Source: Minisyncoccota bacterium (GTDB taxonomy: Bacteria > Patescibacteriota > Minisyncoccia > Phycocordibacterales > CSBR16-193). From it: a stretch of DNA of 64,000 nt. The translations under genes were made by a program, and so were the position numbers. The first letter of the stretch is position 1. The number at the start of each line of letters is the position of its first letter. Below are positions 11,654 to 35,730 of this stretch, in pieces. The stretch lies in assembly GCA_040905715.1 (NCBI GenBank), contig JBBDRA010000003.1, positions 135,075 to 199,074 on the forward strand, read 5' to 3'. The notes beneath the pieces were generated by a model. The model made no database searches and was not told where the DNA came from. It worked only from the letters and a program-made list of their open reading frames with translations.

Positions 11654-11658
11654 GCGTG

Positions 11659-16790: not shown

Positions 16791-16803
16791 TTTATAATTA
16801 ACT

Positions 16804-22746: not shown

Positions 22747-24406
22747 AGATTACTCAAAAATGAATAAGGAAGAATTACTGAATGAGATTACGAAATTAGA
22801 ATCTCGCAAGTCTTATGGTTTGGTGTGGGAAGATAAGCCAGAGGATGTTGTTGAACAGTGTAAAACTCAAATACCGATTCTTACTGAAGTTAAAAAATAT
22901 TTTATCGAAAAAGATTTGGATAAGCCGACAAATCTTTTGATCGAAGGAGATAATTATCATGCTTTAGCAACATTGAATTATACTCATAGAAAACAAATTG
23001 ACATTATTTATATTGACCCACCGTACAATACTGGTGCAAAGGATTGGAAATACAATAACGATTATGTGGATGAGAATGATTCATTTAGACATAGTAAATG
23101 GTTGTCGATGATGAACCATCGGTTACGTTTATCTAGAAACTTACTTACGGACGAAGGCGCCTTAATTTGCGCGATTGATCATAATGAACAAGAAGCGCTG
23201 GGCGTAATGTTGGATGAGCTTTTTCCAGAAAGAGAGAAAGTTTGTGTAACCATCATACATAATCCTGGTGGGATTCAAGGAAACAATTTTTCTTACACAC
23301 ACGAATATGCATACTTTGTTTTCCCTAAAAATGGCACGTATATCTCAAAGGTTATTAGAGACGATGTAAAGCCTACTCCGCTTAGAGATTGGGGCGGTGA
23401 AGAATCTAAACGCGAATCTGCTAGAAATTGTTTTTACCCAATTCATGTAGATAAAGAAATGAATGTTACGGGATTTGGTGATGTGTTACCAGAAAATAAA
23501 CATCCCAAGTCTGCTGTATTAAAAGAAAAAGATGGATCAATGGTAATTTACCCCATTGACTCTGATGGAGTTGAACGTAAGTGGAGATTTGCGCGACATA
23601 CTGTTGAAAGTATTGAAGATGAACTTAGATGTGAAATAGTAAATGGTGAACCATCAATACGCCGATACAAACAAAAATATAGATGGAAAACTGTTTGGAA
23701 TGATAGTAAATACAATGCAAATGTCCACGGTACACAATATCTTGCAGGTATTATTAAGGAAAAATTCCCTTATCCTAAATCAATCTTTACAGTAGAAGAT
23801 TGTATTAAGGCCATTATTCACGATAAACAAACTGCAACCGTATTAGATTTTTTTGCTGGATCAGGTACAACTGGTCATGCGGTTTTGAAACTTAACGAAG
23901 AAGATGGAGGTAATCGTCGATTCATTCTTTGCACTAACAATGAGAATAAAATCGCTGAAGAAGTAACTTATCCTCGGGTTAAGAACGTTATCAAGGGGTA
24001 CGGTGACGTAGAAGGTATTCCCGCGAATCTCCGATACTACAAAACTGATTTTGTGGATGTTGAATCAGTTCACAGTGTTTCAGATCAAAAGAAAATAGAG
24101 CTTACATATAAAGCAGGTCGGATGATTGCTCTACGAGAGGACACGCTAGAGGAGACTGAGAAGAATGACTGGTGGCAAATATTTACTGACAAAAAAGGAA
24201 AAACCACAGCTATTTATTTTAAAGAGGATAAAGAAAAACTTGATGATCTTGTAAAGAAAATCAGTAAATCTGAATCTGCTGTTCTTTACATATTTAGCTG
24301 GGGTAAAAATGAGTATAAGAACGAGTTTACTGGCCATAAAAACATACGGGTCGAAGATATCCCAGAACCGATCCTTGAGGTATACAAGGAAATTAACAAG
24401 AAATAA
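22739..24406 (+). CDS. Type III restriction-modification Mod subunit (N6-adenine/N4-cytosine DNA methyltransferase, beta class)
   Basis: Motif IV IDIIYIDPPYNT precedes motif I VLDFFAGSGTTGHAV. It lies directly upstream of a helicase-nuclease Res gene. Confidence 0.8.
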   Translation: MAKDYSKMNKEELLNEITKLESRKSYGLVWEDKPEDVVEQCKTQIPILTEVKKYFIEKDLDKPTNLLIEGDNYHALATLNYTHRKQIDIIYIDPPYNTGAKDWKYNNDYVDENDSFRHSKWLSMMNHRLRLSRNLLTDEGALICAIDHNEQEALGVMLDELFPEREKVCVTIIHNPGGIQGNNFSYTHEYAYFVFPKNGTYISKVIRDDVKPTPLRDWGGEESKRESARNCFYPIHVDKEMNVTGFGDVLPENKHPKSAVLKEKDGSMVIYPIDSDGVERKWRFARHTVESIEDELRCEIVNGEPSIRRYKQKYRWKTVWNDSKYNANVHGTQYLAGIIKEKFPYPKSIFTVEDCIKAIIHDKQTATVLDFFAGSGTTGHAVLKLNEEDGGNRRFILCTNNENKIAEEVTYPRVKNVIKGYGDVEGIPANLRYYKTDFVDVESVHSVSDQKKIELTYKAGRMIALREDTLEETEKNDWWQIFTDKKGKTTAIYFKEDKEKLDDLVKKISKSESAVLYIFSWGKNEYKNEFTGHKNIRVEDIPEPILEVYKEINKK

Positions 24407-24408
24407 TT

Positions 24409-26688
24409 ATGTTTACACTTAAAACCTTTCAAGAAAAAGCGATAGCTGAATTACGGAAAAACTTCCTAGAACTTTGGAGTACAGGGAATAAGAGGCTAGA
24501 ACTTATATTCAAATCACCAACTGGATCAGGAAAAACAGTAATGACTGCACAGTTTTTGCGTGACTTAACTGGTGATCCACAATTCAACGCTGACAAAGCA
24601 TTCGTGTGGTTTACCTTTAACGAGGAATCATACGAACAAAGCAAGAAGAAGCTTTTTAAATATTATGGCGGTGCCGGAGAAATCGAACTCCTTGATTTAA
24701 ATGATCTTACCCGTAACGCCAAACTGGAGAAAAACAGTGTCTTCTTTATTAACTGGCAGAAGGTAAAGTCTTCTACTAAAGATGGTCGTAAGTTACGAAA
24801 AGACAACGAGAATGACATTACTTTTGACTCATTCATAGAAAAATCAAAAGCAGATGGTCGTGAGATTGTATTGATTGTTGATGAAGCACATCGAGATGCG
24901 AACACTGACCTTGCTCAGGAACTTATTGATCTCATTGATCCGCGCATTATTCTCAAAATTACAGCCACTCCGAAGAATGAACCGTCGTATTCTGATGTGA
25001 AAAATAAGAAGGTCGGTTTTGTAGACGTTGAGCGTAAGGCTGTAATCGAGGAAGGTTTGATTAAAGAAAAAGTTATTACCCAAACTAAGGAAGATATTGA
25101 GAAAGAGGCAAAGAGAGAAATTGACCAAGATTTATTATTGCTCGATTTAGCGTATCAAAAGCGTCTCGAGCTTAAGAAGAGTTATGAAAAGCTTGGTATT
25201 GATATTAATCCTCTTGTACTGGTCCAACTTCCCAATGATGATAAAGCTCGCAAGGAAACCTTAGATAAATCAAAGAAGGATGTCGTTCTTGATTTTCTAA
25301 AAGATAAAGGTGAAGAAGATCACAATGTTGCTGTTTGGCTTTCAAACGACAAAGAAAATTTGGATGAAATTGAAAAAAATGACTCAGAGATAAATTTCTT
25401 AGTTTTCAAACAGGCGGCTGCCACTGGTTGGGATTGTCCTCGAGCGGCTATCTTGGTGATGTACCGAGAGATTAAAAGTCCGGTCTTTCACATACAAACT
25501 GTCGGGCGAATTCTTCGTATGCCTGAAGCTATTCACTATCCAAGTCCTGATCTAAATATTGGATATCTATATACAAACTACGAGCGAAATCAGATCCTCG
25601 CTGAATACGATAAGCAAAAAGGAGAAAATCGTCCTGCGACACAGATAAGTCGACGCAAGAAAGATGTTAAACCAATCAAGCTCGACTCTGTATTTATGAG
25701 TCGTGCTGACTACAACGACCTTGGTGACTCATTCCAGAAGACATTTAAGCAAGTCGCGAATAAAGAGTTGGGTATTAAAGATGGAAATACTAAAGCACAG
25801 ATTAAGAAGACACTGAAAGAACAGAACCTAGATGTCACAGATGTGAAAGTAGAGAGTAGTCTTATTGTGGATGCTGAAATAGAAAACTACGATAATTTTA
25901 TTGAGGAACTAAGAGCAAATACGGTAGAGCTTTCAAATGAAATTTCACGTAATGATCTGGAGCGTCTCTACAATCTCCTTTGTTTCAATATCATTTCTAA
26001 ACAAGAGGATGAGAACAAGAAATTTGCTCCTGAACGTTCATGGGGAAAGTTGAAAACTGCACTCAACGTCTACTTCTCAAATATGCTAGACATCCCTCGT
26101 GAGGATTACTACAAAGTCATTGTAAATGATCTACTCCGACCAGATAGTGTATTGCGCCCTATTCTTGGGGAGACACTTGAGAAATATCGTCCAATCCGTG
26201 AAAAGGAAGTCAAAGAGAAAGCTAAGCGAACTCGACGTGATGAAGTGTTGGAAATACCACGAGAGTATCTATTCTTCACAGATCTGTATGAAGAGATGAA
26301 AGTGAAGAAGTCTGCGATGCATCCTTTCTATATTCAGAAGGAACCTGTTCAAAATGAAAATGAGTTTATCAAATATCTTGAGGCATCAAGTAAGGTCGAG
26401 TGGTGGTATAAGAATGGTGACTCTGGAAGTGAATATTTCTCAATTCCTTATTATCACGAAACAGAAAATCGTGAACGCCTTTTCTATCCTGACTGGATTG
26501 TGAAGACTAAGAACAAAGTTTGGATCCTCGATACCAAAGCTGGCTTTACTGCCGAAAGCAACGATACTCAATACAAAGCAGAAGCATTGAAAGGATGGTT
26601 AAAGGGAAAGAATAAATTTGACGGCGGTATTGTGGTGCCAGACGGTCCGAACGGGTGGAAAATTGGTGGTAAGAAATTAATTTTATAA
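24409..26688 (+). CDS. Type III restriction enzyme Res subunit (SF2 helicase + C-terminal PD-(D/E)xK-like nuclease)
   Basis: Walker A SPTGSGKTVMTAQ and DEAH box LIVDEAHRD. Late helicase motifs QAAATGWDCP...QTVGRILR. C-terminal YPDWIV...VWILDTKAG. Starts 2 nt after mod. Confidence 0.8.
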   Translation: MFTLKTFQEKAIAELRKNFLELWSTGNKRLELIFKSPTGSGKTVMTAQFLRDLTGDPQFNADKAFVWFTFNEESYEQSKKKLFKYYGGAGEIELLDLNDLTRNAKLEKNSVFFINWQKVKSSTKDGRKLRKDNENDITFDSFIEKSKADGREIVLIVDEAHRDANTDLAQELIDLIDPRIILKITATPKNEPSYSDVKNKKVGFVDVERKAVIEEGLIKEKVITQTKEDIEKEAKREIDQDLLLLDLAYQKRLELKKSYEKLGIDINPLVLVQLPNDDKARKETLDKSKKDVVLDFLKDKGEEDHNVAVWLSNDKENLDEIEKNDSEINFLVFKQAAATGWDCPRAAILVMYREIKSPVFHIQTVGRILRMPEAIHYPSPDLNIGYLYTNYERNQILAEYDKQKGENRPATQISRRKKDVKPIKLDSVFMSRADYNDLGDSFQKTFKQVANKELGIKDGNTKAQIKKTLKEQNLDVTDVKVESSLIVDAEIENYDNFIEELRANTVELSNEISRNDLERLYNLLCFNIISKQEDENKKFAPERSWGKLKTALNVYFSNMLDIPREDYYKVIVNDLLRPDSVLRPILGETLEKYRPIREKEVKEKAKRTRRDEVLEIPREYLFFTDLYEEMKVKKSAMHPFYIQKEPVQNENEFIKYLEASSKVEWWYKNGDSGSEYFSIPYYHETENRERLFYPDWIVKTKNKVWILDTKAGFTAESNDTQYKAEALKGWLKGKNKFDGGIVVPDGPNGWKIGGKKLIL

Positions 26689-26690
26689 TT

Positions 26691-27383
26691 ATGTCATCCC
26701 GTCAAGTAACAAATTGGATTTCTCTTTCTGACATGATGACAGGGTTAATGCTGGTCTTTCTCTTGATTGCTGTTTTGAGTATTGCGCAGGTTGTTGCAAA
26801 AGAAGAAGAGCGACAGGAATTATTGAATGAATATGATTTATCTAAGGAGGAAATTTACAATGATCTAGAAGATACGTTTGGAGACAAAAAAGAAGAATGG
26901 GGAATTGAGATAAGTCGAGATTTGAGCATCAAATTTCAAAATCCTGACGTATTGTTTGGTTATTTAAGTTCTGATATCTCCTCAGAATTTGAAACTATTC
27001 TAGAAGAATTTATTCCTTCGTATCTAAAGATAATAAATAAAGAAAAATATCAAGACAAAATTAAAGAAGTTCGCGTTGAGGGTCATACAGCTGATTGGAA
27101 TGATTATATGTTTACGGTTAAATTGTCTCAAGAAAGGGCAAATGCTGTATTAAGGACTATACTTAACAGTAGCTATTACAACAATTTAGATGCTAAAACA
27201 AAAGATAAAATTAAGTTTTGGTTTACAGCTAATGGACTGGGAAATGGTAGAACTTTGGACTCAGAAGGTGAGTTTACTTATTATTCCGATAAAGATATAA
27301 GCACAAACTCTCGTCGAGTTGAGTTTAGGATTGTGACAACAAGTGATGAACTAATTGAGGAGATTATCAATAGACAGCAATAG
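26691..27383 (+). CDS. MotB/ZorB-like protein: N-terminal TM with conserved Asp plus C-terminal OmpA-like peptidoglycan-binding domain
   Basis: WISLSDMMTGLMLVFLLIA parallels the MotB channel helix (W..yADfMTamMafFlv), including the protonatable Asp. The C-terminal VRVEGHTADWNDY...LSQERANAVLRTIL is the OmpA/MotB signature. Confidence 0.7.
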   Translation: MSSRQVTNWISLSDMMTGLMLVFLLIAVLSIAQVVAKEEERQELLNEYDLSKEEIYNDLEDTFGDKKEEWGIEISRDLSIKFQNPDVLFGYLSSDISSEFETILEEFIPSYLKIINKEKYQDKIKEVRVEGHTADWNDYMFTVKLSQERANAVLRTILNSSYYNNLDAKTKDKIKFWFTANGLGNGRTLDSEGEFTYYSDKDISTNSRRVEFRIVTTSDELIEEIINRQQ

Positions 27384-27389
27384 AACATT

Positions 27390-28427
27390 ATGACTTTAAT
27401 GACAATATTTATAGTGGTTTGGATTGTGCTAACAATTTACATTCCATACAAATTTAAAGAAAGAGGTATCCAAGAGATGCAAACTATTGCAACTACGTTT
27501 GGTATCCTTGGAACATTTATCGGTATTATTGTTGCTTTGTATAATTTTGATACTTCGAACATTGAAGCCGCGGTTCCATTGTTGCTCGACGGATTAAAGT
27601 TTGCTTTTGTAACATCTATTTTTGGAATGTTAACATCTTTACTTATTGGACTTTTTCCTCAAAAATTTGGACACGGTGTTGCCAATGAAGAGGGTGTAAC
27701 TGAAGACAAGGATAAATCAGAGCCAGAATTACTCGCTGAGTTACTTTCAGAAGTTAAAATTCTTAATGGGAATATATCTGGAGAAAGCGATACTACTTTA
27801 ATTACGCAAATTCAAAAAATGCGAACAAGTATTGTAGATAAGCAAGATGATCTAAATAAGGCTTTTGACAAATTTGCCGAAGATATGGTTAATAGTAATA
27901 TTGACGCTCTCGCAGAAGCTATTGAAAAAGTAATGGGTGATTTTAACACGACAGTTAATGAAAAGTTGGGCAGGACCTTTGATGATTTTAAGAAATCAGT
28001 GGAAAATCTTAATGTTTGGCAATCTGAGTATAAAGCTCAGATATTGTCTCAAACTGAAAATATGAAATCAGTTGCAGACTCACTAAGTACTACAGAAAAA
28101 AGTATGAGTGAGGTTAAAGATTCTTATCAAGAAATTGTTTCTATAAAAGAAAAATTTGATGAGCTTCTTAAAAACCTGAATGCGCAATTACAAGGTAGTT
28201 TAGATTTTGCAGACGCAATGAAAGACTTAACAACTGATCTAGAAGGATCGGGCGATGTTATAAAAGAAGAGATGAAAGAGATTACTTATGGAGCTGCTAC
28301 AGAAATGGAAAAAACAATGAATAAAACATTAGCTGATTTTGGGAGTAGTTTAGCAGATATTTCTGGAAAATTAGCGGAGAATTTTGGAAAAATGCAGCGA
28401 GCACTTGATAGTCATGAAAATAACTAA
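27390..28427 (+). CDS. MotA/ExbB/TolQ-like proton-channel protein with ~240-aa C-terminal coiled-coil tail (compact ZorA-like)
   Basis: Three N-terminal TM helices carry the MotA-family motifs FGILGTFIGIIVAL and LKFAFVTSIFGMLTSL. The remainder is E/K/L/Q-rich and predicted coiled-coil. Confidence 0.6.
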   Translation: MTLMTIFIVVWIVLTIYIPYKFKERGIQEMQTIATTFGILGTFIGIIVALYNFDTSNIEAAVPLLLDGLKFAFVTSIFGMLTSLLIGLFPQKFGHGVANEEGVTEDKDKSEPELLAELLSEVKILNGNISGESDTTLITQIQKMRTSIVDKQDDLNKAFDKFAEDMVNSNIDALAEAIEKVMGDFNTTVNEKLGRTFDDFKKSVENLNVWQSEYKAQILSQTENMKSVADSLSTTEKSMSEVKDSYQEIVSIKEKFDELLKNLNAQLQGSLDFADAMKDLTTDLEGSGDVIKEEMKEITYGAATEMEKTMNKTLADFGSSLADISGKLAENFGKMQRALDSHENN

Positions 28428-28432
28428 TATCT

Positions 28433-29245
28433 ATGGAAAAGGACGAATTTAACAATAAAATATCGGATATAGTAAGCTATTTTGATGACATTAAACAAAG
28501 AATCGGTGCTAAAGATACGGGGTTTGTGATAGTGCCAAGAGAATTGAAAACTCCAACTGGTAAATTTAATGCTGGTAAACCAATTACTGGTGCTGAATTA
28601 CAAAGAATTTCTAAAAATTGGAAATCAAAAGATCCTTTGATTGATGAGGAAGGTAATGCGTTCGTTCTTTATATACCTGATTTTACAAGTAATCATTATA
28701 GGAGAGGCTTTTCTCCAGAAAATTTACCAAAGTATCATACTTCTTGGTGTTGGACATTAGATAATATGAAGGAATCAGGAAGAATGAAAAGATATATTAA
28801 AAAGACGGATATAGAAACAAATATCTTTAAAGGGAAAAAGGATGGAGATAGAAATATTGAGAGTGTATTATATGCTTGTCAAAATTGTAGAAAAACATTA
28901 GAAGATATTTACGGAAGAAATATGTATTTTGACGTTAAAAATATGGATATGCTCAAGTTTTTCTCTTTGTACGGAAAACATTATTTATATGACCCTAAAG
29001 TGAAAAAACCTTATTCTGTAATGTATCCAAAACATTGGGATGAAATTTCAAAGAAATATAGAGAAAAAGCAAATTGGAAGTGTGATCAGTGTGGTGAGTC
29101 TTTCGCGAATAACAAAAAGGAATTAGATGTTCACCATATAAATGGAATTAAAAGTGATGTTAGGGATACAAACCTAAAAGTTTTATGTAAAAAACATCAT
29201 GCTGAACAACCTATGCATAGTCATTATAACAAAATTATAAATTAG
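28433..29245 (+). CDS. HNH endonuclease (ZorE-like)
   Basis: C-terminal HNH motif CDQCGESF...DVHHINGIKSDVRDTNLKVLCKKHHA, plus an earlier CQNCRK cysteine pair (zinc-binding). Starts 5 nt after the preceding gene. Confidence 0.7.
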   Translation: MEKDEFNNKISDIVSYFDDIKQRIGAKDTGFVIVPRELKTPTGKFNAGKPITGAELQRISKNWKSKDPLIDEEGNAFVLYIPDFTSNHYRRGFSPENLPKYHTSWCWTLDNMKESGRMKRYIKKTDIETNIFKGKKDGDRNIESVLYACQNCRKTLEDIYGRNMYFDVKNMDMLKFFSLYGKHYLYDPKVKKPYSVMYPKHWDEISKKYREKANWKCDQCGESFANNKKELDVHHINGIKSDVRDTNLKVLCKKHHAEQPMHSHYNKIIN

Positions 29246-29250
29246 TATTT

Positions 29251-30723
29251 ATGAATTTAACAAAAACAGACTTTAAAGAATACTTAATTTGCCCCAAATG
29301 GTTATGGGTAAAGAAAAAGAAACCTGAACTTGCAGTTGAGGGTGAGATGTCGCTATTCCTGAAGAAACTTATTAAAGATGGATATGAGGTTGAGGAATTC
29401 GCTCAGCAGATGTTTCCAAGTGGTGTTGAGATAACTGGCAACTCAGGTGTACTGAAAGAAAAAACTCAGGAATATCTAGAAAAAAATCAAACAATGTTTC
29501 AAGCGACTTTTGAGACAGACAGAGGCTTGTTTGCAAAGGCAGACGTTCTCGAATTTGATGAAGAAAGTGGTAAGTGGAATATCTATGAAATTAAGGCAAG
29601 TTCTTCAATCAAGACCGATCTTCAACATAATCATCTAAAAGATATTACATTTCAAACAATCGTCGCCGAAGAATCAGGGATTCCTATAAATAAAAGTTTT
29701 ATCATCCATATCAATAAGGAATACAAACGAGAGGGTGAAATAAACCCAAGAGAATTATTTGTTATAGAAGACGTCTCTAAAGATGTCCAAGAAGGTAAAG
29801 AAAAAGTAAACCAAGAAATTGAGACTGCTTTAGATTTTTTAAGTAAAGATAAAATCTCAATGGAAGGTTGTGAGTGTTTATACAAATCACACGGACAAAG
29901 ATGTGATTCATTCACAGTCTTTAACCCTAAGGTGCCTGAATATTCAGTTCATCATATCGTTGGTGGAAAGAAACTCCTCTCACTTATTGAAACTGATGTA
30001 TTTGATGTGAAAGAGATTCCAGAAGATTTTAATCTTACCGATAAGCAACAAGAAAAAGTCACACTCCAAAAAACCGGTAAGCCAATAATCGATGAAGAGT
30101 CAATCAGAGAAACGCTTTCTAATTTAACTTTCCCTCTGTATTTCTTAGATTATGAGACTTTTGGTAAGCCATATCCAATACTTGATGGATACACCTCAAA
30201 TCAGCAGATTGTATTTCAATACTCACTACATATTCTAAAGGAAGATGGTTCTTTAGAGCATCGTGAGTATTTAGCTGATGATTTTGAGAATGCCACAAAA
30301 GGACTCCTTGATCATATGAATGAGCATATTGGCCCTACAGGAACTGTTGTCGTCTGGTATGAATCATTTGAAAAAGGAAGAAATAGGGAGCTTGCTGAAA
30401 TACATTCAGAATATGCTGACTTTCTGCACAATATAAACAGCCGAATCTACGATCTAATGCTTATATTTAAAAAAGATTACCTACACCCTGATTTTTATGG
30501 GAGTGCCTCTATCAAAAAAGTGCTTCCTGTAATGCTTCCAGAATTATCCTACAAGAACTTAGAAGTTCAAGACGGAACAATGGCTATGAGCGAATGGGAG
30601 AAGATAGCTACTGGAAAAATTACAGGTGAAGAGGCAGAAGAATTACGAAAACATCTACTGGAATACTGTGAACGAGATACGTTTGCGATGGTTGAGTTGT
30701 TTAAGAAGCTACAACAATTATAA
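29251..30723 (+). CDS. Cas4/RecB-like PD-(D/E)xK nuclease with Fe-S cysteine set, fused to a C-terminal RNase-H-like domain (DUF2779-like architecture)
   Basis: N-terminal YLICPKWLW. Catalytic ADVLEFDE...IYEIKAS (D...ExK). The Cys cluster CECLYKSHGQRC together with the N-terminal Cys gives a Cas4-type 4-Cys arrangement. The C-terminal LYFLDYETF...VVVWYESFEKG resembles the FLDFET RNase-H-like domain. Confidence 0.6.
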   Translation: MNLTKTDFKEYLICPKWLWVKKKKPELAVEGEMSLFLKKLIKDGYEVEEFAQQMFPSGVEITGNSGVLKEKTQEYLEKNQTMFQATFETDRGLFAKADVLEFDEESGKWNIYEIKASSSIKTDLQHNHLKDITFQTIVAEESGIPINKSFIIHINKEYKREGEINPRELFVIEDVSKDVQEGKEKVNQEIETALDFLSKDKISMEGCECLYKSHGQRCDSFTVFNPKVPEYSVHHIVGGKKLLSLIETDVFDVKEIPEDFNLTDKQQEKVTLQKTGKPIIDEESIRETLSNLTFPLYFLDYETFGKPYPILDGYTSNQQIVFQYSLHILKEDGSLEHREYLADDFENATKGLLDHMNEHIGPTGTVVVWYESFEKGRNRELAEIHSEYADFLHNINSRIYDLMLIFKKDYLHPDFYGSASIKKVLPVMLPELSYKNLEVQDGTMAMSEWEKIATGKITGEEAEELRKHLLEYCERDTFAMVELFKKLQQL

Positions 30724-30762
30724 ATATGATGCATGTTATTGAACTTATAAATTATCTTACAG

Positions 30763-31605
30763 ATGTTTTCAAAGTTAATTTTTTTAAAAGACAAACTGTT
30801 TCTTAAAATAAGAAACAAAAAGGATGTAAGACTATACACCTTCAAATCAAAACTACTGCTATATGGAAAAAGAAATTTTAAGCAATATTTCACGATAGCA
30901 AGAGACGGAACTGTGACAGAGAGGATTCTTTTGAATGTACCTGATGTTTCATTAAGAGAAGAAATTATTTGTAAACACTACCTTTCTTTTTTAGTTAAAA
31001 ACTTAATAAAGGAACCTATCGGTATCAACTTGCTAAAAAGGGATCAGCCATGGGATTTTAGTGTTGAGCTCAGTAATGGTGATAAGTTTAATATAGAAAT
31101 CACATCAATCGCTGAAAACAAGGAGTTGTTTGAGAAATTAAAACGTGAAGAGGAGTTTGAAAAAATAGTCGCGAGAAAAAATATTTTATTGCGCGAACTC
31201 AAAAAAATCCATTTCTGGTTTCGTAACAAAAAGGCAAAACAGACCATCAATGATGCTGAAGAAAATTTTTTAAATAAAAACGATAAAGTATTGAATCCTT
31301 TTTACAATTATCCAAGCAGGATTTTCTATAGTAGTTACATAAAGAATGAGGGGGACTCTCTGAAAGATTTGATATCAGGAGCAATTAAAAGAAAGGTGTC
31401 CAAGTCTCATTTAGATAAAGATAAAACTATTTTAATAATTGATAACCGAACTATCCAATTCGGCCTGGAAGACATTTTTTGGGTAATTAAGGAGTTAGAA
31501 GTTGAGTGTGCACACATTCCTTTTCCTGAGATTTATTTCTACACAGGCCACTACTCAGATGACGATGGGAATAATGCTAGGTATTCATTCGTACCCCTTA
31601 AGTAA
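30763..31605 (+). CDS. Hypothetical protein (280 aa), possible degenerate PD-(D/E)xK-like core
   Basis: AT-rich ORF with no clear family. DFSVELSNGDKFNIEITS might be a D...E-x-(K/T) nuclease-like core. Speculative. Confidence 0.35.
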   Translation: MFSKLIFLKDKLFLKIRNKKDVRLYTFKSKLLLYGKRNFKQYFTIARDGTVTERILLNVPDVSLREEIICKHYLSFLVKNLIKEPIGINLLKRDQPWDFSVELSNGDKFNIEITSIAENKELFEKLKREEEFEKIVARKNILLRELKKIHFWFRNKKAKQTINDAEENFLNKNDKVLNPFYNYPSRIFYSSYIKNEGDSLKDLISGAIKRKVSKSHLDKDKTILIIDNRTIQFGLEDIFWVIKELEVECAHIPFPEIYFYTGHYSDDDGNNARYSFVPLK

Positions 31606-31663
31606 CCAGAAAAACATTAAAAACATGCTCACGTCCCTCAGCTATCGAGTTTTCTGAGGGGGG

Positions 31664-32278
31664 TTACCGTTTATTTCTCCTTATCTTTTTTCTATCAAGA
31701 AGTTTCTGAAGATTATCCGCCACCTCTTTAGCTCCGTCTATTTTCAATTTATCTTTTACATCATAAAACTGATCAAAGAAATCATTTATAATATGACGCA
31801 CCTCCTCGCTAGTTCGTTCTTTGGTTCCAAGTTCTTTAATTCTTTTCGATAGCTCGTGAACCAAATCTTCTTTACTTATTTTCTGTTTTTTTCTGCCTCT
31901 ATACTTTTCTATATTGGGTTCTTTATAACCACAAACCCGACATGTTTCTCCAGATTCAAGTTTGTGTGGATGAGTAACTGGATCGACATAAGTTGTACGA
32001 ACTGGTTTGTATCTCGGATTGTTGTATTGAAGCCAGAATATAATAAGGCGAGCATTTTCGTTTTTGATGCCTTTAATAACCGCTGACTCAGCCATGTCAT
32101 TTATGTTCTGCCGACCTATTTCCAATATCGCATCAGTCTGATCACGAAAGTCTTTATCATCCTTACGCCATCTGTAGTAGGTGGTTCGATCAAGGCCGAT
32201 TTTCTTACAGGCAAAAGACACAATTGGTGTCTCTGCCAATATTTGTAATAGTTTCGATTTATCACCCAACCTAGCCAT
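31664..32278 (-). CDS. Phage terminase small subunit (TerS)-like HTH protein
   Basis: N-terminal HTH PIVSFACKKIGLDRTTYYRWRKDDKDF followed by NARLIIFWLQYNNPRY. Compare the aaIFwLKNRrPExW pattern of phage TerS proteins. Confidence 0.5.
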   Translation of the reverse strand: MARLGDKSKLLQILAETPIVSFACKKIGLDRTTYYRWRKDDKDFRDQTDAILEIGRQNINDMAESAVIKGIKNENARLIIFWLQYNNPRYKPVRTTYVDPVTHPHKLESGETCRVCGYKEPNIEKYRGRKKQKISKEDLVHELSKRIKELGTKERTSEEVRHIINDFFDQFYDVKDKLKIDGAKEVADNLQKLLDRKKIRRNKR

Positions 32279-33587
32279 TAATCTTTACCCGTTTCTTACC
32301 CGTATATTTCTCCCATCTATTCAAGATCACTTCCGTATAGACATTCGATTTTTCCATGAGGAAACAACGCCTATTTAACCTATTGGCTGCGATTAAGGTA
32401 GATCCGCTTCCACCAAACGGTTCATACACCAATTCGTCTCTTTTCGTTAGTATCTTTATATACGGAATCAGTATTTCTACAGGTTTCGTGCCAAAGATAA
32501 TTCCCTGACCGCTAGATTTTTCATCCGCCGCATTATGTTCAATAAAGTCAGTTGGGCAGTACTTTTTGTTTTTTCCATATGACTCCCAGTGTGGTTTGCC
32601 GGATATAGCAAACAGAGCGGTTTCGTATTCATTTTCAACAAGTTCCCCCTCTTGTTCTAAATTAACCTCTTTGTTATCCGTACCAACCATAGCAATGTCA
32701 TACTTTGAAAAGAGTTTGTGCTTTCCGGCATACCCTTGATTTCTGTTGGGGAGATGCCAGATAAGCATATTCCTGACTTTCCAGTATTTCTCCATCTCAT
32801 TCCAGATCGTCCTGATATTTTTCCAGTTTTCATAGACAATGATAGCGAAATGCTCGTCTTGTATTTTATTCACATTCGCCATCCACTTTTCGGTAAAGTC
32901 TTCGGGGATAGATTCGGTTTCTAAGTACCTTCTGTTTTTCTTGGCTCCAAAGCCGGTGGTTGCTTCACCGTGTTTAGTCTTGCCGTGTAGGTAATCTAAA
33001 ATATATGGAGGGTCCGTCATAACCATCTGGGCTTTTTCTTTACCAAACAGTTTTGTGACATCTGCCTCTGTTGTGCTATCACCACACATTAAGCGTGACC
33101 CATCGAGATCATAGATATCTCCCTTTTTGACAGTGACTTCTTTGATATCCAGTTTTTCTAGTTCTTTTTGGAGATCAAAAAGTTCTTCTTCGTGATCTTC
33201 GTCGAAAATAATATCTAGTTCTTCGGAATCAAATCCGATGTCAGCTAGAATGGTTTCATCGAATTCTGCCAAAAGGTCATAATTAAATTCTCCTTGATTT
33301 TTGTTTAAACGAAGATTTAATTCTTTTTCTTTTTCCTCGGTTAGATCAAGAAAAACCACAGGAATAGTTGTGTGACCAAGCTCCTTACACACCTCGAGTC
33401 GAAAGTGGCCACCAATAACGACATTGGTTCTCTCTTTATTTTTATTAACAATCAACGGATCAATTGTGCCAAAACGATTGATACTCTCTTTTAATTGTTT
33501 TTTCTGAAATTCATCCCATGTACGAGGATTATATTCAGAAGCGTGAAGTAGATTTATATCTACATATTCTATTTTGATGTTGCTCAT
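32271..33587 (-). CDS. ParB-like nuclease domain fused to N6-adenine/N4-cytosine DNA methyltransferase (orphan MTase)
   Basis: N-terminal ParB/Srx domain (IEYVDINLLHASEYNPRTW...GGHFRLEVCKELG). MTase motif IV MVMTDPPY and motif I VYEPFGGSGSTLIAA. No adjacent restriction endonuclease. Confidence 0.8.
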   Translation of the reverse strand: MSNIKIEYVDINLLHASEYNPRTWDEFQKKQLKESINRFGTIDPLIVNKNKERTNVVIGGHFRLEVCKELGHTTIPVVFLDLTEEKEKELNLRLNKNQGEFNYDLLAEFDETILADIGFDSEELDIIFDEDHEEELFDLQKELEKLDIKEVTVKKGDIYDLDGSRLMCGDSTTEADVTKLFGKEKAQMVMTDPPYILDYLHGKTKHGEATTGFGAKKNRRYLETESIPEDFTEKWMANVNKIQDEHFAIIVYENWKNIRTIWNEMEKYWKVRNMLIWHLPNRNQGYAGKHKLFSKYDIAMVGTDNKEVNLEQEGELVENEYETALFAISGKPHWESYGKNKKYCPTDFIEHNAADEKSSGQGIIFGTKPVEILIPYIKILTKRDELVYEPFGGSGSTLIAANRLNRRCFLMEKSNVYTEVILNRWEKYTGKKRVKING

Positions 33588-33677
33588 AATAACTTAATAA
33601 TTAAACTAATAAACCGTAGCTTTTTGCTACGGTCTTATTTAATCATTAAAAATTTTTGGATTTCATAAAAAAGTACC

Positions 33678-34388
33678 TCACTTTTTTATGAACTTTTTAA
33701 ATACCCGATCCCTTATCTTTTTTATTTGGTCGGATATATTATATATCTCTGACTTACTCGGTCTTTTTCCAGTCTTATCTTCTATAAAGTCTGCTATATC
33801 CTCTGATGTTCTGGTGATATATTCTTGGTCTCCATAGTCAAAATAAATTCTTTTGTTTTCCCATTGATCTTTGATTGCGAGTTTTCTATCTAAATCTTTT
33901 ATTTTCTTGTTAGAAAAAAGTCTCTTACCAAAAAACTTATTTGTAAACTCTTTTATAGTTAACCAATCTTTGTCAGTTAATTTATTATTTATAGTAAGTT
34001 GTACCGCTCTATTTCCAACAGTTGGTTTGATAGAAAAAGGTAACCCTGGAAGTTTTTTAATTTCACCAGTTATTATGTATTGTCTTATCGTCTCAAACCA
34101 GTTATCAGGATAATTAAAGTCCTTAATTATCTCTTGGATACTTGCAGTAAAATAGTTTATGAGTTCCTCCGCATTTTCCTTATGTAGTAATTTATTAAAC
34201 CAAGCCTCAATTGATTGATCCTCATCTTTAGATTCGCTATCTCCATAAAGGCCTTCAGGGATTTCTAAATAGGATCGAATTTCTTGAATTCTTTTTCCAA
34301 ATTCTGGATCACTAAAAGCCAATCGTATATTGTCTTTGTTTCTAGAGCCGTATTCACTTATTTTCCGTTTTAAACCCTTATCTTTCAT
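33678..34388 (-). CDS. Hypothetical protein (236 aa), basic/acidic K/E-rich
   Basis: ORF with island-like AT-rich composition. No recognisable motif. Confidence 0.35.
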   Translation of the reverse strand: MKDKGLKRKISEYGSRNKDNIRLAFSDPEFGKRIQEIRSYLEIPEGLYGDSESKDEDQSIEAWFNKLLHKENAEELINYFTASIQEIIKDFNYPDNWFETIRQYIITGEIKKLPGLPFSIKPTVGNRAVQLTINNKLTDKDWLTIKEFTNKFFGKRLFSNKKIKDLDRKLAIKDQWENKRIYFDYGDQEYITRTSEDIADFIEDKTGKRPSKSEIYNISDQIKKIRDRVFKKFIKK

Positions 34389-34726
34389 TGTTTTGATGAT
34401 AGTTTGTTTGTATTATGAAAGCAACAGTTATATGCTCCCTCGTGTAGTATTTGTTGCATTTTTTACAAGTTACAGCCCGACCCGACCTCCTCAAAATCCG
34501 CTATACTAAAACCACCAAGAAACCCTTGTGGGGCTTGAAATAATTTATTACTTAACCCGAACTGCCCGCCGAAGAGTTTTGCGATGAGGTGGAGAGGGCG
34601 AGCGCAGTATTTTTGAAAAAAATACGTCGCGCGGACTCGAAAAGGTTCTTTAGATATTTTGTGAGCTTGCCTGCTGGCAGGCAGGGAACGAGACAAAATA
34701 TCAAAAACCTGTACTGATCCTGTAAG

Positions 34727-34750
34727 GATCGAGTCCCGCCGCCTCCGCAG
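34727..34750 (+). repeat. Direct repeat of the tRNA-Ser 3' end (attR-like)
   Basis: TCGAGTCCCGCCgcCTCCGCAG here versus TCGAGTCCCGCCctCTCCGCAG at 11862-11883, 20/22 identical in the same orientation. It is followed by a 9-bp inverted repeat CCTCCGCAG...CTGCGGAGG. Confidence 0.55.
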
Positions 34751-34836
34751 ATTTGAGTGTAGCAAAAAGCTGCGGAGGAGAGCAGGGTGTTTTTAAGCGT
34801 TTAGGTGGATTTGAGAGAGTCTGACTTGCACAACAT

Positions 34837-35730
34837 TTGTTTAAGCTGGGTACGTACTTTATTGCGGTTCCTGCGGAATATTTGTATAGTGTTGTTACTA
34901 TGACAAATAAACAAAACAATGTTAATATCTCACCGCGTAAGAGTAAGAAAGTTGTTGCTATAAGTTTTCTTTTCTCAGTCTTTCTGGCTGTGTTATCAAT
35001 TTTTATATCAAATCTTATTATTACACCAAGTCCTTGGGGACCGGTGTATTTTTTTTGGGGTTTTGAAATAGCTAAAATTTTTAGTGCGAGTGTGCTTTTT
35101 ACATTTATAGCATCAGTGCCGTTCATTATTCTAAATTTTTTTGCTGTATTTATTTTTAGAAAACACAGAAGTATTAGGGTTGGATTATTACTGGGTTATT
35201 TGAGTATAATATTAATCTATTTAGTATCATTAGCGCTTTATGGATCTATCCCTTCACTGAATACTATAAATCAAGTTGGTCCGGAAGATGCAAGTCAATG
35301 TGCAGAAATGCAAGTTACTAATAGTACAGAAGGTGCGTTAAGAAACTATTGTTATATAGAAGTTGCTGAAGAGACCTTGAACATTGATTTGTGTGATGAT
35401 CTTGTGAGTGAATATGTAGCCGGAGATATACAATCATGTAAAGATAATATAAATCTTAAGCTTGCATTGGAAAACCTGGATGCTAATTATTGTGAAAATA
35501 TAGTTTACAGCAATAATCGTAATACCTGTAACCTATCTATGTCATTACAAACTGAAAATTATAGTCTTTGCACTAAAATTATTGAGGGAGGCGTCCTTGA
35601 TACTGAGATGTGCTACATGAGGTTCATCAAGCAATATAACTCAGAGGAGATAAGAAACGAACTTTGTCCACTAATAAAAAACCACAGGGATAATGTGAAT
35701 AATCCTTGTAATAAACCCATACCTGAGTAG
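34837..35730 (+). CDS. Multi-TM membrane protein with Cys-rich extracytoplasmic C-terminal domain
   Basis: 4-5 hydrophobic helices, then a C-terminal region with about 14 cysteines (CAEMQV...CYIEV...CDDLV...CKDNI...CENIVY...CNLS...CTKII...CYMRF...CPLIK...CNKP). Confidence 0.4.
   Translation: MFKLGTYFIAVPAEYLYSVVTMTNKQNNVNISPRKSKKVVAISFLFSVFLAVLSIFISNLIITPSPWGPVYFFWGFEIAKIFSASVLFTFIASVPFIILNFFAVFIFRKHRSIRVGLLLGYLSIILIYLVSLALYGSIPSLNTINQVGPEDASQCAEMQVTNSTEGALRNYCYIEVAEETLNIDLCDDLVSEYVAGDIQSCKDNINLKLALENLDANYCENIVYSNNRNTCNLSMSLQTENYSLCTKIIEGGVLDTEMCYMRFIKQYNSEEIRNELCPLIKNHRDNVNNPCNKPIPE

What the first reader, a model, noticed from the sequence alone, without database searches (positions are those of the whole stretch)
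29251..30723. Cas4-like Fe-S PD-(D/E)xK nuclease fused to an RNase-H-like FLDYETF domain, last gene of the defence operon
The N-terminal half carries the Cas4/RecB nuclease hallmarks. These are the motifs ICPKWLW and ADVLEFDE...IYEIKAS, plus a 4-Cys arrangement (one N-terminal Cys and CECLYKSHGQRC). The C-terminal half has the YFLDYETF...VVVWYESFEKG block typical of the DUF2779 architecture. It sits 5 nt after the HNH gene and may be an effector or adaptation-like nuclease of the system.
Basis: partly seen in the sequence, partly recalled or inferred. Interest (0 to 1): 0.55.

Follow-up and report, generated by a model that had tools for sequence, protein, structure and literature searches.

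The report
Two-nuclease DUF2779 gene on defence island
This gene encodes a member of the already described DUF2779 family, a Cas4-like nuclease fused to a 3'-5' exonuclease; it travels on a mobile defence island next to interchangeable anti-phage systems and is not a dedicated part of the neighbouring Zorya or restriction system.

Summary
The ORF (29251-30723, +, 490 aa) and all quoted motifs are real. It is a clear member of DUF2779/PF11074 (128.6 bits). The N-terminal half is a Cas4/RecB-type PD-(D/E)xK nuclease (D98/E113/K115) with a 1+3 cysteine site (C14, C207, C209, C218). The C-terminal half is a divergent DEDDy RNase-H-like exonuclease (D300/E302/E374/D401/Y472/D476). This architecture is already published.

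The operon reading is only partly right. The gene sits 5 nt after a ZorE-like HNH gene, but it is penultimate in the array, and the window has no CRISPR array. About 90 related loci were compared. Its upstream neighbour swaps between Zorya II, AAA_13, giant Hhe-like helicases, SNF2, type III/ISP/IIG R-M and housekeeping genes, with no co-diversification. Mod-Res occurs without it in 4 of 4 loci.

In this genome it shares the low GC of a ~24 kb island (GC3 0.295 against core 0.466). That island carries a phage-type serine integrase and a ParB-methylase.

Best reading: an autonomous, island-borne DNA-end-processing nuclease that probably assists DNA-targeting defence modules. That role is inferred, not shown. 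It is a new member of a known kind, of moderate interest.

The parts
29251..30723 (+). DUF2779-family ORF (490 aa), the finding itself
   Evidence: ORF list and translation. Pfam PF11074 128.6 bits. A 100% identical protein, P0001, is annotated 'DUF2779 domain-containing protein, Candidatus Paceibacterota'.
29251..29925 (+). N-terminal Cas4/RecB-type PD-(D/E)xK nuclease domain (about residues 1-225), with catalytic D98, E113, K115 plus Q135 and Y158
   Evidence: PADLOC Cas4 HMMs cover residues 2-181, best E 4.5e-9. Foldseek PDB top hits are Cas4 8d3l_I (4.5e-4), 7mi4_A, MGME1, RecE and Dna2. D98/E113/K115 are 98-99% conserved in 131 diverse sequences.
29290..29292 (+). Codon of C14, the N-terminal cysteine of the putative [4Fe-4S] site (motif ICPKWLW)
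   Evidence: Invariant in 37 close homologs and present in 76% of the diverse set. Where it is absent, the C-terminal cluster region usually holds four cysteines instead.
29869..29904 (+). C207-x-C209-x8-C218 cysteine cluster (CECLYKSHGQRC)
   Evidence: All three are invariant in close homologs. C-x-C-x8-C is the dominant spacing, found in 51 of 61 regex-matched diverse sequences.
30121..30720 (+). C-terminal RNase-H-like DEDDy-type 3'-5' exonuclease domain (about residues 291-490), with D300, E302, E374, D401, Y472-x3-D476
   Evidence: Pfam DUF2779 covers residues 297-420. All six residues are 100% conserved in 131 diverse sequences. The domain-only model has pLDDT 90.8. Foldseek hits are exclusively RNase-H-like; RNase T, ERI2 and ExoI reach probability 0.8-0.9 but E is never better than 6.5e-3. 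There are full-length structural matches to giant-virus YprB RNase-H-like proteins at E 1e-15.
28433..29245 (+). Neighbour: ZorE-like HNH nuclease (270 aa), 5 nt upstream
   Evidence: PADLOC ZorE2 E 2.6e-43. NCBIfam ZorE 110.8 bits, below the 600-bit equivalog cut-off.
26691..28427 (+). Neighbours: ZorB-like (26691-27383) then ZorA-like (27390-28427, 345 aa)
   Evidence: PADLOC ZorB2 E 1e-66 and ZorA2 E 1.1e-56.
22543..26688 (+). Neighbours: MerR/excisionase-type HTH (22543-22746), type III Mod methylase (22739-24406), and Res helicase subunit (24409-26688, 759 aa) with no recognisable endonuclease domain
   Evidence: Pfam and PADLOC. The Res family is widespread at 60-67% identity.
30763..31605 (+). 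Co-directional 280-aa ORF of unknown function, the true last gene of the array
   Evidence: ORF list. No hit in Pfam, PADLOC, NCBIfam or PHROGs. No homolog in any related locus.
21121..22431 (-). Large serine recombinase/integrase at the left edge of the defence block
   Evidence: Pfam Resolvase + Recombinase + Zn_ribbon_recom. PHROG integrase E 4.9e-65. Homologs lie within 10 kb of DUF2779 in 19 of 55 loci.
31664..33587 (-). Convergent pair: small-terminase-like HTH protein (31664-32278) and ParB-N6/N4 DNA methylase (32271-33587)
   Evidence: Pfam. PHROG DNA methyltransferase E 5.2e-79 and terminase small subunit E 4.1e-5. ParB-methylase homologs lie near DUF2779 in 18 of 55 loci.
11900..35750 (.). 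Low-GC genomic island (GC 0.29-0.40 against a core of 0.46-0.49), beginning just after tRNA-Val/Glu/Ser and containing the target
   Evidence: Composition profiles. tRNAs at 11579-11882. GC3 of the target is 0.295 against a core of 0.466 +/- 0.048.

Best explanation
The ORF encodes an autonomous two-nuclease protein of the DUF2779 family. The N-terminal domain is a Cas4/RecB-type PD-(D/E)xK nuclease carrying a four-cysteine, [4Fe-4S]-type site. In characterised Cas4 enzymes this kind of domain has 5'-3' ssDNA exonuclease/endonuclease activity. The C-terminal domain is a YprB/DnaQ-like DEDDy 3'-5' exonuclease. Together they should be able to trim or degrade DNA ends of either polarity.

In this Paceibacterota genome the gene was acquired as part of a low-GC mobile defence island. 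That island holds a serine integrase, a type III R-M pair, Zorya II, DUF2779 and a ParB-methylase. The gene is very probably co-transcribed with the defence genes, but it is not a dedicated subunit of Zorya II or of the R-M system. Across relatives the same gene sits directly 3' of interchangeable DNA-targeting cassettes.

The most likely role is ancillary. It would process or destroy the nicked or cut DNA that the upstream modules produce, a portable substitute for a RecBCD-like processing hub.

Shown here: the architecture, the conservation of both active sites and the cysteines, the island context, the cassette swapping, and independence from Mod-Res. Inferred: enzymatic activities, Fe-S binding, co-transcription, and cooperation with the upstream systems.
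For: Identity and architecture:
- Pfam, PADLOC and NCBIfam hits.
- AF2 model with pLDDT 91.9.
- Cas4, MGME1, RecE and Dna2 as top PDB folds.
- The C-terminal domain matches only RNase-H-like folds.
- Whole-architecture matches to giant-virus YprB-domain proteins at E 1e-15.
- Both catalytic sets are 98-100% conserved across 131 sequences down to about 33% identity.
- The cysteines are invariant in the close clade. The ligand is relocated in a subclade, which argues for a real metal site.

Island-borne:
- GC 0.354 and GC3 0.295, against a core GC3 of 0.466 +/- 0.048.
- The island begins at a tRNA cluster.
- It carries a phage-type integrase and a ParB-methylase, and these recur near DUF2779 in 26 of 55 loci.
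- The closest relative, L003, keeps the whole Res-ZorBAE-DUF2779 block at 81-90% identity (Mod aligns only in part, at 78%) but has different downstream genes.

Autonomy and swapping:
- The -1 neighbours include PDC-S37/Hhe helicases (6), PDC-S06 AAA_13 (5), ZorE (5), type III Res (4), SNF2 (3), and WYL, GmrSD, type ISP and housekeeping genes.
- Cassette types are interspersed on the DUF2779 tree.
- In L008, Mod is 81% and Res 74% identical to the window's, but AAA_13 replaces Zorya.
- Mod-Res occurs without DUF2779 in 4 of 4 Res-anchored loci.

Directional link to large defence genes:
- The upstream neighbour is >=700 aa in 24% of loci, against 4% background and 6% downstream (p 3e-8).
- It is on the same strand in 84%, against 71% background (p 0.017).

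Literature:
- DUF2779 has been described as Cas4-like plus DEDD exonuclease (PMC3985635, PMC13621843).
- ZorE is a nickase (PMC11890865).
- Zorya II is sensitive to loss of recD, and its synergy with Druantia III requires RecBCD (PMC13192584).
- Solo-Cas4 is over-represented in CPR, and UvrD-Cas4 has been proposed as an ancillary nuclease next to type III R-M (PMC5704561).
Against: - No biochemical or genetic data exist for any DUF2779 protein.
- The C-terminal fold matches to solved DEDD exonucleases are weak (best E 6.5e-3, TM <= 0.42).
- The family also occurs in plain housekeeping contexts (L010, a complete genome). It is reported as quasi-essential in JCVI-syn3.0 (PMC13621843), which fits a general repair role as well as a defence role.
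- Tight spacing and co-orientation are common in these compact genomes: 71% of background gene pairs are on the same strand and the median gap is 34 nt.
- Whether this genome lacks RecBCD/AddAB could not be checked from a 64 kb window.
- Gene calls in the related loci were made with a crude longest-ORF procedure.
Confidence: 0.5

Rival explanations
1. Housekeeping repair or recombination nuclease that merely borders a defence-island insertion hotspot. DUF2779 would be a vertically inherited core gene, for example an end-resection exonuclease in reduced genomes lacking RecBCD and RecJ. Variable islands would insert or recombine next to it, using it as a conserved homology anchor.
For: - Full-length homologs at 57-89% identity across many Paceibacterota lineages.
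- A housekeeping neighbourhood in the complete genome CP174359 (L010).
- DUF2779 GC tracks the host GC in many loci.
- The family is quasi-essential in JCVI-syn3.0 (PMC13621843), and a transposon mutant of the M. bovis homolog appears among growth-deficient mutants (PMC7373297).
- Mollicutes lack RecBC and RecJ (PMC1193525).
- Solo-Cas4 genes evolve mostly vertically (PMC5704561).
Against: - In this window the gene has island-like, not core-like, composition (GC3 0.295 against 0.466 +/- 0.048).
- It is syntenic with the upstream block, not with the downstream genes, in its closest relative.
- No conserved core gene flanks the other side of the supposed hotspot.
- Integrase and ParB-methylase homologs accompany it in about half of the loci.
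- Variable, defence-like genes lie on both sides.
Confidence: 0.22
2. Backbone gene of a mobile element. The nuclease would serve the island itself, for example in recombination-dependent replication, excision or integration processing, or counter-defence. Phage Cas4-like and YqaJ/RecE-type exonucleases play roles of that kind.
For: - Co-occurrence with a phage-type serine integrase and ParB-methylase in 26 of 55 loci.
- 13 homologs on IMG/VR viral contigs, one contig carrying two copies.
- Structural neighbours include many phage PD-(D/E)xK exonucleases and giant-virus proteins with the same two-domain architecture.
- Hudaiberdiev et al. note frequent recruitment of Cas4 by mobile elements (PMC5704561).
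Against: - No PHROG family matches it.
- Only fragmentary hits (15% coverage) in 50,697 phage genomes.
- Viral-contig homologs are distant (32-40% identity) and rare (13 among 2.9 million contigs).
- No replication or structural genes lie nearby in the window.
- It also occurs in contexts free of mobile-element genes.
Confidence: 0.13
3. Dedicated fourth component of a CPR-specific Zorya II variant (ZorB-ZorA-ZorE-DUF2779), acting with the ZorE nickase to degrade DNA.
For: - Every CPR-type ZorBAE cluster seen has DUF2779 immediately downstream: the window, L003, L012, L013, L051 and the ZorE-anchored L096, where the two genes overlap by 4 nt.
- ZorE homolog P0400 and DUF2779 homolog P0088 share a longest-contig length of 155,964 bp.
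- ZorE is mainly a nickase (PMC11890865), so an exonuclease partner would be mechanistically sensible.
Against: - Five of the six cases were found by anchoring on DUF2779, so the sample is biased.
- More than 90% of DUF2779 loci lack Zorya.
- Zorya-linked copies are not monophyletic. L096's copy is only about 35% identical to the window's, while its ZorE is 59% identical.
- AAA_13-linked and Zorya-linked copies are intermixed at 68-89% identity.
- Canonical type II Zorya is defined by three genes in PADLOC and NCBIfam, and E. coli Zorya II studies treat ZorA, ZorB and ZorE as the system (PMC11890865).
Confidence: 0.08
4. Nuclease supplied in trans to the type III-like Res subunit, which lacks a recognisable endonuclease domain.
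For: - The window's Res (759 aa) matches only helicase domains, whereas a Res in L002 carries PF19778 RE_endonuc.
- The same Res cluster sits at -1 of DUF2779 in L048, L081 and L049.
Against: - All four Res-anchored loci, including L092 with a 93% identical Res, have Mod-Res without DUF2779 within 6-8 kb.
- The Res family is widespread in bacteria and archaea at 60-67% identity.
- DUF2779 occurs without Mod-Res in most loci.
Confidence: 0.03
5. CRISPR adaptation nuclease (a bona fide Cas4).
For: Cas4 HMM hits and Cas4 as the top structural match.
Against: - No CRISPR array in 64 kb.
- No Cas hit among the scanned neighbours.
- TIGR00372 scores 24 bits against a cut-off of 65.
- The fusion to a DEDDy domain is not a Cas4 architecture.
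Confidence: 0.01

Closest known systems
DUF2779 / PF11074 family, including MMSYN1_0389 of JCVI-syn3.0 (PMC13621843) and family F.17 of the RNase-H-like classification (PMC3985635)
   Same: Same two-domain architecture: a Cas4-like PD-(D/E)xK domain plus a DEDD(y) RNase-H-like exonuclease. The D-E-K triad and the acidic residues plus tyrosine are conserved in the same way. The window protein scores 128.6 bits against the Pfam model.
   Different: The window protein keeps all four cysteines, whereas MMSYN1_0389 is reported to have only two. It is 490 aa, shorter than the Mollicutes UU173-type proteins (the NF045869 profile is 650 long, and only the C-terminal part matches at 86 bits against a cut-off of 225). 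It lies on a mobile defence island, not in a minimal essential genome.
CRISPR-associated Cas4 (for example SSO0001/4IC1, and type I-C Cas4 in 8D3L)
   Same: PD-(D/E)xK fold, a 1+3 cysteine arrangement, and an N-terminal C-P-x-x-x-W motif. Cas4 is the top Foldseek hit.
   Different: No cas1/cas2 or CRISPR array nearby. The score is below the Cas4 equivalog cut-off. The cysteine spacing is C-x-C-x8-C. It carries an extra C-terminal exonuclease domain.
UvrD-Cas4-like fusion proteins (pfam12705 branch) found next to type III Mod/Res, WYL/HTH and Schlafen-like ATPase genes (Hudaiberdiev et al. 2017, PMC5704561)
   Same: A Cas4-like nuclease recurrently placed beside type III R-M, WYL and SLFN-like helicase genes, and proposed to play an ancillary role in several defence pathways. 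This is the same kind of context seen here.
   Different: A different Cas4-like lineage and a different fusion partner: a UvrD helicase there, a DEDDy exonuclease here.
COG2251 / TM0106 / YprB-type 'RecB-like nuclease + RNase_H_2 (PF13482)' proteins and their giant-virus homologs
   Same: The same order of a PD-(D/E)xK domain followed by a YprB-like RNase-H domain. Some close homologs carry precomputed PF13482 hits. There are full-length structural matches to CroV E3T4R0, Faunusvirus and Yasminevirus proteins (E about 1e-15, TMq 0.59-0.70).
   Different: TIGR03491 scores only 16.8 bits against a cut-off of 97. There are no AAA domains. Sequence identity to the viral proteins is 11-14%.
RecBCD/AddAB nuclease modules as a DNA-processing hub for defence (PMC13192584)
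   Same: The RecB/AddB nuclease domains belong to the same PD-(D/E)xK family, and AddB also has a 1+3 Cys Fe-S site (my own knowledge). Zorya II activity and synergy in E. coli depend on RecBCD status.
   Different: No helicase domain. Any equivalence of function is inference only.
Type II Zorya (ZorA, ZorB, ZorE)
   Same: Immediate genomic neighbour, and plausibly co-transcribed.
   Different: The target matches no Zorya model. The association is not reciprocal.

Membership tests
DUF2779 (Pfam PF11074) | Score above the Pfam gathering threshold | tested here: met
   128.6 bits against 23.3, E 2.1e-37, covering residues 297-420 and the full profile 1-126.
DUF2779 (Pfam PF11074) | Full-length collinearity with family members (N-terminal PD-(D/E)xK domain plus C-terminal RNase-H-like domain) | tested here: met
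   Homologs align over residues 2-489 down to about 33% identity.
DUF2779 (Pfam PF11074) | Conserved D...E-x-K triad in the N-terminal domain and conserved acidic residues plus Tyr in the C-terminal domain | tested here: met
   D98 0.99, E113 0.98, K115 0.98. D300, E302, E374, D401, Y472 and D476 are all 1.00 in 131 diverse sequences.
Cas4 (CRISPR-associated, TIGR00372/COG1468) | Score at or above the curated equivalog cut-off | tested here: not met
   24 bits against a cut-off of 65. The PADLOC Cas4 HMMs hit at E 4.5e-9 to 7e-4.
Cas4 (CRISPR-associated, TIGR00372/COG1468) | PD-(D/E)xK fold with four cysteines (one N-terminal, three C-terminal) | tested here: met
   Fold: Cas4 8d3l_I and 7mi4_A are the top hits. 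Cysteines: invariant in 37 close homologs, and the 1+3 pattern is found in 78 of 131 diverse sequences.
Cas4 (CRISPR-associated, TIGR00372/COG1468) | Actual binding of an Fe-S cluster, and 5'-3' exonuclease activity | not testable with these tools
   Requires purified protein.
Cas4 (CRISPR-associated, TIGR00372/COG1468) | Location in a cas adaptation module (cas1/cas2, CRISPR array) | tested here: not met
   No array-like repeat in 64 kb. None of the neighbouring proteins scanned is a Cas protein.
DEDD (DnaQ-like) 3'-5' exonuclease superfamily | RNase-H-like fold with Exo I (DxE), Exo II and Exo III (Y/H-x3-4-D) motifs | tested here: inconclusive
   The motifs are present and invariant: D300-x-E302, F-E374, Y472-x3-D476. 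All fold hits are RNase-H-like. RNase T, ERI2 and ExoI reach probability 0.8-0.9 but E is never better than 6.5e-3 and TM <= 0.42. Published HHpred matches to MrfB exist for a family member (PMC13621843).
Type II Zorya | Homology to ZorA, ZorB or ZorE | tested here: not met
   The target's only PADLOC hits are Cas4 models.
Type II Zorya | Consistent co-occurrence with the core genes | tested here: inconclusive
   From the DUF2779 side this is not met: ZorE is the -1 gene in only 5 of 64 loci, and the copies are not monophyletic. From the CPR ZorE side, all six clusters seen have DUF2779 downstream, but only one of them was found independently of DUF2779.
Type III restriction-modification | Required partner of Mod-Res | tested here: not met
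   Mod-Res occurs without DUF2779 in L092, L093, L094 and L095.
UU173 family (NCBIfam NF045869) | Score at or above the curated cut-off | tested here: not met
   86.4 bits against 225. Only residues 287-482 match, to profile positions 404-639 of 650.
TM0106 RecB-like nuclease (TIGR03491) | Score at or above the curated cut-off | tested here: not met
   16.8 bits against 97.45.

The most novel reading that the evidence does not exclude
DUF2779 could be a portable DNA-end-processing hub, a RecBCD surrogate. In CPR bacteria, which have reduced genomes, it would travel on integrase-bearing islands directly 3' of whichever DNA-targeting defence cassette is present (R-M, Zorya II, AAA_13/PDC-S06, Hhe/PDC-S37 helicases, SNF2). 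It would be needed to turn their nicks or cuts into irreversible degradation of phage DNA. That would make it a shared accessory effector common to many otherwise unrelated systems.
Probability: 0.2. Interest if true: 0.7.

Novelty: new member of a known kind. Interest (0 to 1): 0.38.

Why it matters
The protein is a routine member of a family whose architecture has been published twice, so the finding as written adds little.

What could matter is the context. CPR bacteria largely lack CRISPR and have minimal DNA-repair sets. Here a conserved dual exonuclease repeatedly sits at the 3' end of swappable defence cassettes on integrase-bearing islands.

If that link is functional, it would give DUF2779 (thousands of sequence clusters, quasi-essential in the minimal cell) a first testable role. 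It would also extend to uncultivated, genome-reduced lineages the emerging idea that defence systems depend on a common DNA-processing hub.

Tried and rejected
1. DUF2779 as the missing nuclease of the Res subunit. Rejected: four Res-anchored loci, one with a 93% identical Res, lack it.
2. A pure "core anchor gene next to a hotspot" model. Weakened by the island-like GC/GC3 of the gene in this window, by synteny with the upstream block only, and by the lack of a conserved gene on the other side.
3. CRISPR adaptation role. No array found.
4. Phage gene. No PHROG family, and only 15%-coverage hits in the phage collection.
5. Sequence and profile searches against PDB sequences found nothing meaningful.
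6. The genome-contig scan returned only two loci, so context analysis relied on exact-protein look-ups and the metagenome scan.
9. The promoter/terminator scan gave counts equal to the shuffled expectation, so it is uninformative about operon boundaries.
10. Literature searches found no statement on RecBCD/AddAB content of Patescibacteria.
Full report
**Observation.** It starts 5 nt after the stop of the upstream HNH gene. It is not the last gene of the array. A 280-aa ORF of unknown function (30763-31605) follows after 39 nt on the same strand. Only after that come a 7-bp GC-rich hairpin and the first convergent gene.

**What the protein is.**
- Pfam assigns residues 297-420 to DUF2779/PF11074 at 128.6 bits against a cut-off of 23.3.
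- The N-terminal 180 residues hit four Cas4 HMMs of PADLOC, best E 4.5e-9. The NCBIfam Cas4 equivalog reaches only 24 of the 65 bits required. The UU173 and TM0106 models are also below their cut-offs.
- A 100% identical protein is annotated as a DUF2779 protein of a Candidatus Paceibacterota MAG, so the window comes from a CPR/Patescibacteria bacterium.
- The family is large: 7,338 clusters at 50% identity reach E<=1e-3, and 1,980 reach 1e-30. Alignments cover both halves down to about 33% identity.

**Active sites and cysteines.**
- In 37 close homologs (57-89% identity) the following residues are invariant: C14, C207, C209, C218, D98, E113, K115, Q135, Y158, D300, E302, E374, D401, Y472 and D476.
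- Across the query plus 130 diverse representatives (131 sequences), the PD-(D/E)xK triad is 98-99% conserved. All six C-terminal residues are 100% conserved.
- The cysteines fall into three classes:

| Class | Cysteine arrangement | Sequences (of 131) |
|---|---|---|
| Cas4-type | 1+3, mostly C-x-C-x8-C | 78 |
| Relocated ligand | No N-terminal Cys, but three or more (mostly four) Cys in the C-terminal cluster region | 20 |
| Cluster lost | His replaces the N-terminal Cys, and most cluster cysteines are gone | about 10 |

- Relocation of a ligand is what one expects of a real metal cluster.
- Y472-x3-D476 is the DEDDy form of the Exo III motif. F373-E374, at the start of the helix after strand 4, occupies the Exo II position according to the model's secondary structure.

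**Structure.**
- The AF2 model is confident, with pLDDT 91.9 and pTM 0.85.
- Against the PDB, its best matches are Cas4 in Cas4-Cas1-Cas2 complexes (8d3l_I at E 4.5e-4, and 7mi4_A), then MGME1, RecE and Dna2. All of these are Cas4/RecB-type PD-(D/E)xK nucleases.
- The C-terminal domain modelled alone (pLDDT 90.8) matches only RNase-H-like folds. Among them, RNase T, ERI2 and ExoI reach probability 0.8-0.9, but E is never better than 6.5e-3 and TM is at most 0.42. It is therefore a divergent DEDD-type domain with no close solved relative.
- Against predicted viral structures, the whole two-domain architecture matches YprB-RNase-H-domain proteins of giant viruses (CroV E3T4R0, Faunusvirus, Yasminevirus) at E about 1e-15 and TMq 0.59-0.70.
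- The architecture is not new. Majorek et al. 2014 placed DUF2779 in the 3'-5' exonuclease clade and noted its DUF83/PD-(D/E)xK partner. A 2026 study of JCVI-syn3.0 described MMSYN1_0389 as a Cas4-like plus DEDDh/y fusion with both sites intact.

**The neighbours.** The co-directional array consists of the following genes:
- a MerR/excisionase-type HTH;
- a type III Mod methylase;
- a 759-aa Res helicase subunit;
- ZorB-like, ZorA-like (345 aa) and ZorE-like HNH genes;
- DUF2779;
- orf280.

A large serine recombinase lies divergently at the left edge. On the right, a ParB-N6/N4 methylase and a small-terminase-like protein converge on the array.

**Is the target part of those systems?** I collected about 100 related loci and called genes in them.
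- No gene family is a universal partner.
- The gene immediately upstream is very often a defence gene:

| Upstream (-1) gene class | Loci |
|---|---|
| PDC-S37/Hhe-like giant SF1 helicase | 6 |
| PDC-S06 AAA_13 ATPase | 5 |
| ZorE | 5 |
| Type III Res | 4 |
| DrmD/BrxH-like SNF2 | 3 |
| WYL, GmrSD, type ISP, SMC-like | 1-3 each |
| Housekeeping (ATP synthase epsilon, LysRS) | a few |

- The link is directional. The upstream neighbour is at least 700 aa in 24% of loci, against 4% for genes three or more positions away and 6% for the downstream neighbour (p 3e-8). It is on the same strand in 84% of loci against 71% background (p 0.017). Downstream neighbours carry fewer and more scattered defence hits.
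- On a tree of DUF2779, the cassette types are interspersed. Within the window's own clade (68-89% identity), copies linked to Zorya, AAA_13, Hhe-like helicases and other genes are mixed. The Zorya-linked copy of L096 is only about 35% identical to the window's, although its ZorE (59%) and recombinase (71%) are much closer.
- In L008, Mod is 81% and Res 74% identical to the window's, yet AAA_13 replaces Zorya.
- From the other direction, four loci anchored on Res homologs lack DUF2779. One of them is a Patescibacteria locus whose Res is 93% identical. There, Mod-Res is followed by still other modules, such as an nSTAND NTPase or an AAA_15/21 ATPase. This refutes my own idea that DUF2779 supplies the nuclease that this Res seems to lack.
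- From the Zorya side the picture is less clear. Only 24 ZorE homologs exist in the database. The one independent look-up (L096) again shows ZorB-ZorA-ZorE-DUF2779, with a 4-nt overlap between ZorE and DUF2779. A dedicated CPR-Zorya role therefore cannot be fully excluded, but the lack of co-diversification argues against it.

**Core gene or island gene?**
- The window has a core GC of 0.46-0.49. A block of about 24 kb at GC 0.29-0.40 runs from just after tRNA-Val/Glu/Ser (11579-11882) to about 35.7 kb.
- The target's GC3 is 0.295. That is about 3.6 SD below the core mean (0.466 +/- 0.048) and within the island range.
- Its closest relatives sit in low-GC genomes. L003 (89% identity) keeps the entire Res-ZorBAE-DUF2779 block at 81-90% identity (Mod aligns only in part, at 78%) but has different downstream genes. 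In this genome, then, the gene arrived with the island.
- In many other loci its GC tracks the host. In the complete genome CP174359 it sits among housekeeping genes. The family is therefore not exclusively mobile.
- Homologs of the window's serine recombinase (a phage-type integrase, PHROG E 4.9e-65) and/or the ParB-methylase (PHROG E 5.2e-79) lie within 10 kb of DUF2779 in 26 of 55 loci with adequate flanks.
- DUF2779 itself matches no PHROG family. It is nearly absent from sequenced phages, and it is rare and distant on IMG/VR contigs.

**Mechanism.**
- Shown: two intact, strongly conserved nuclease active sites of different families; a conserved four-cysteine site; an island location; and repeated placement directly 3' of interchangeable DNA-targeting defence genes.
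- Inferred: the Cas4-like domain acts as a 5'-3' ssDNA exonuclease/endonuclease, as reported for Cas4 proteins in the works cited in PMC5704561. The DEDDy domain acts as a 3'-5' exonuclease. Together they would process DNA ends of either polarity.
- Because ZorE is mainly a nickase (PMC11890865) and R-M enzymes make breaks, an exonuclease encoded next to them could convert such lesions into degradation.
- A 2026 preprint reports that E. coli Zorya II is sensitive to loss of recD, and that its synergy with Druantia III needs intact RecBCD as a "DNA-processing hub" (PMC13192584).
- Hudaiberdiev et al. found solo-Cas4 over-represented in CPR and DPANN. They proposed an ancillary defence role for a different Cas4-like fusion (UvrD-Cas4) that lies next to type III R-M, WYL and Schlafen-like genes. 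Mollicutes, where DUF2779 is quasi-essential, lack RecBC and RecJ.
- I therefore favour an ancillary end-processing role. I hold it at moderate confidence, because a general repair function is equally compatible with the biochemistry.

**Verdict.** The "operon effector or adaptation nuclease" interpretation is only partly supported. The protein is a new member of a known, computationally characterised but experimentally untested family. The only moderately novel element is its recurrent, directional association with swappable defence cassettes on integrase-bearing islands in CPR bacteria.

Noticed in passing
window 11900-35750: A low-GC block of about 24 kb (GC 0.29-0.40 against a core of 0.46-0.49) starts right after tRNA-Val/Glu/Ser (11579-11882). 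The left part (12.2-20.3 kb) looks biosynthetic: an aminotransferase, two ATP-grasp/L-amino-acid-ligase-like genes, a SAM methyltransferase and a 2-hydroxyacid dehydrogenase. The right part is the defence and mobile block. The serine recombinase itself has core-like GC3 (0.458).
   Followed up: partly
window 26691-29245: The Zorya II genes are in the order ZorB-ZorA-ZorE, whereas the canonical order is zorA-zorB-zorE (my own knowledge). ZorA is only 345 aa, while the PADLOC ZorA2 profiles are 420-590 long. ZorE scores 110.8 bits against a 600-bit NCBIfam equivalog cut-off, and only 24 homologs were found in 5.8 billion proteins. This looks like a compact, CPR-specific Zorya II variant.
   Followed up: partly
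window 24409-26688; loci L092-L095, L008: The type III Res subunit (759 aa) has no recognisable endonuclease domain. Its family (770-790 aa) is spread across bacteria and archaea at 60-67% identity. Mod-Res is regularly followed by a variable third module: Zorya, AAA_13, an nSTAND NTPase, or AAA_15/21.
   Followed up: partly
window 21121-22431 (-); L092, L094, L096: A large serine recombinase lies divergently upstream of the R-M/defence array in the window, and the same arrangement recurs in L092, L094 and L096. It could be the island integrase, or an invertase controlling the array. No att sites were searched for.
   Followed up: no
window 31664-33587 (-): A phage-type ParB-N6/N4 DNA methylase (PHROG E 5e-79) overlaps a 204-aa protein with weak small-terminase similarity (E 4e-5). 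No large terminase or structural genes are present. This could be a prophage remnant or a satellite-like packaging module.
   Followed up: partly
window 30763-31605 (+): A 280-aa ORF directly after the target has no hit in Pfam, PADLOC, NCBIfam or PHROGs and no homolog in any of about 100 related loci. The gene after DUF2779 differs even in the closest relative, L003.
   Followed up: partly
P0164, P0173, P0183 and others (diverse DUF2779 representatives): A DUF2779 subclade lacks the N-terminal cysteine (its motif is A/S-P-x-H-L-W-A) but has four or more cysteines in the C-terminal cluster region. Another subclade replaces the N-terminal cysteine with His and has lost most cluster cysteines. 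These look like a rewired and a lost Fe-S site respectively.
   Followed up: partly
L102 and L111 (IMGVR_UViG_3300032737_000190, 55 kb): A single predicted viral contig carries two DUF2779 homologs (38-39% identity to the target) about 17 kb apart. One of them has a serine recombinase and a ParB-methylase nearby.
   Followed up: no
L094 8945-10345: A reverse transcriptase (RVT_1) next to a bAvd gene, the signature of a diversity-generating retroelement, and a terminase-like gene lie just downstream of a Mod-Res pair homologous to the window's.
   Followed up: no
window 4663-9564 (+): A 1,633-aa ORF lies in the core-GC region. It was not examined.
   Followed up: no
window 28350-28391: This is the only tandem repeat in the window (21-nt unit, 2 copies, 80% match). 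It lies inside the 3' end of the ZorA-like gene, in its coiled-coil tail region.
   Followed up: no
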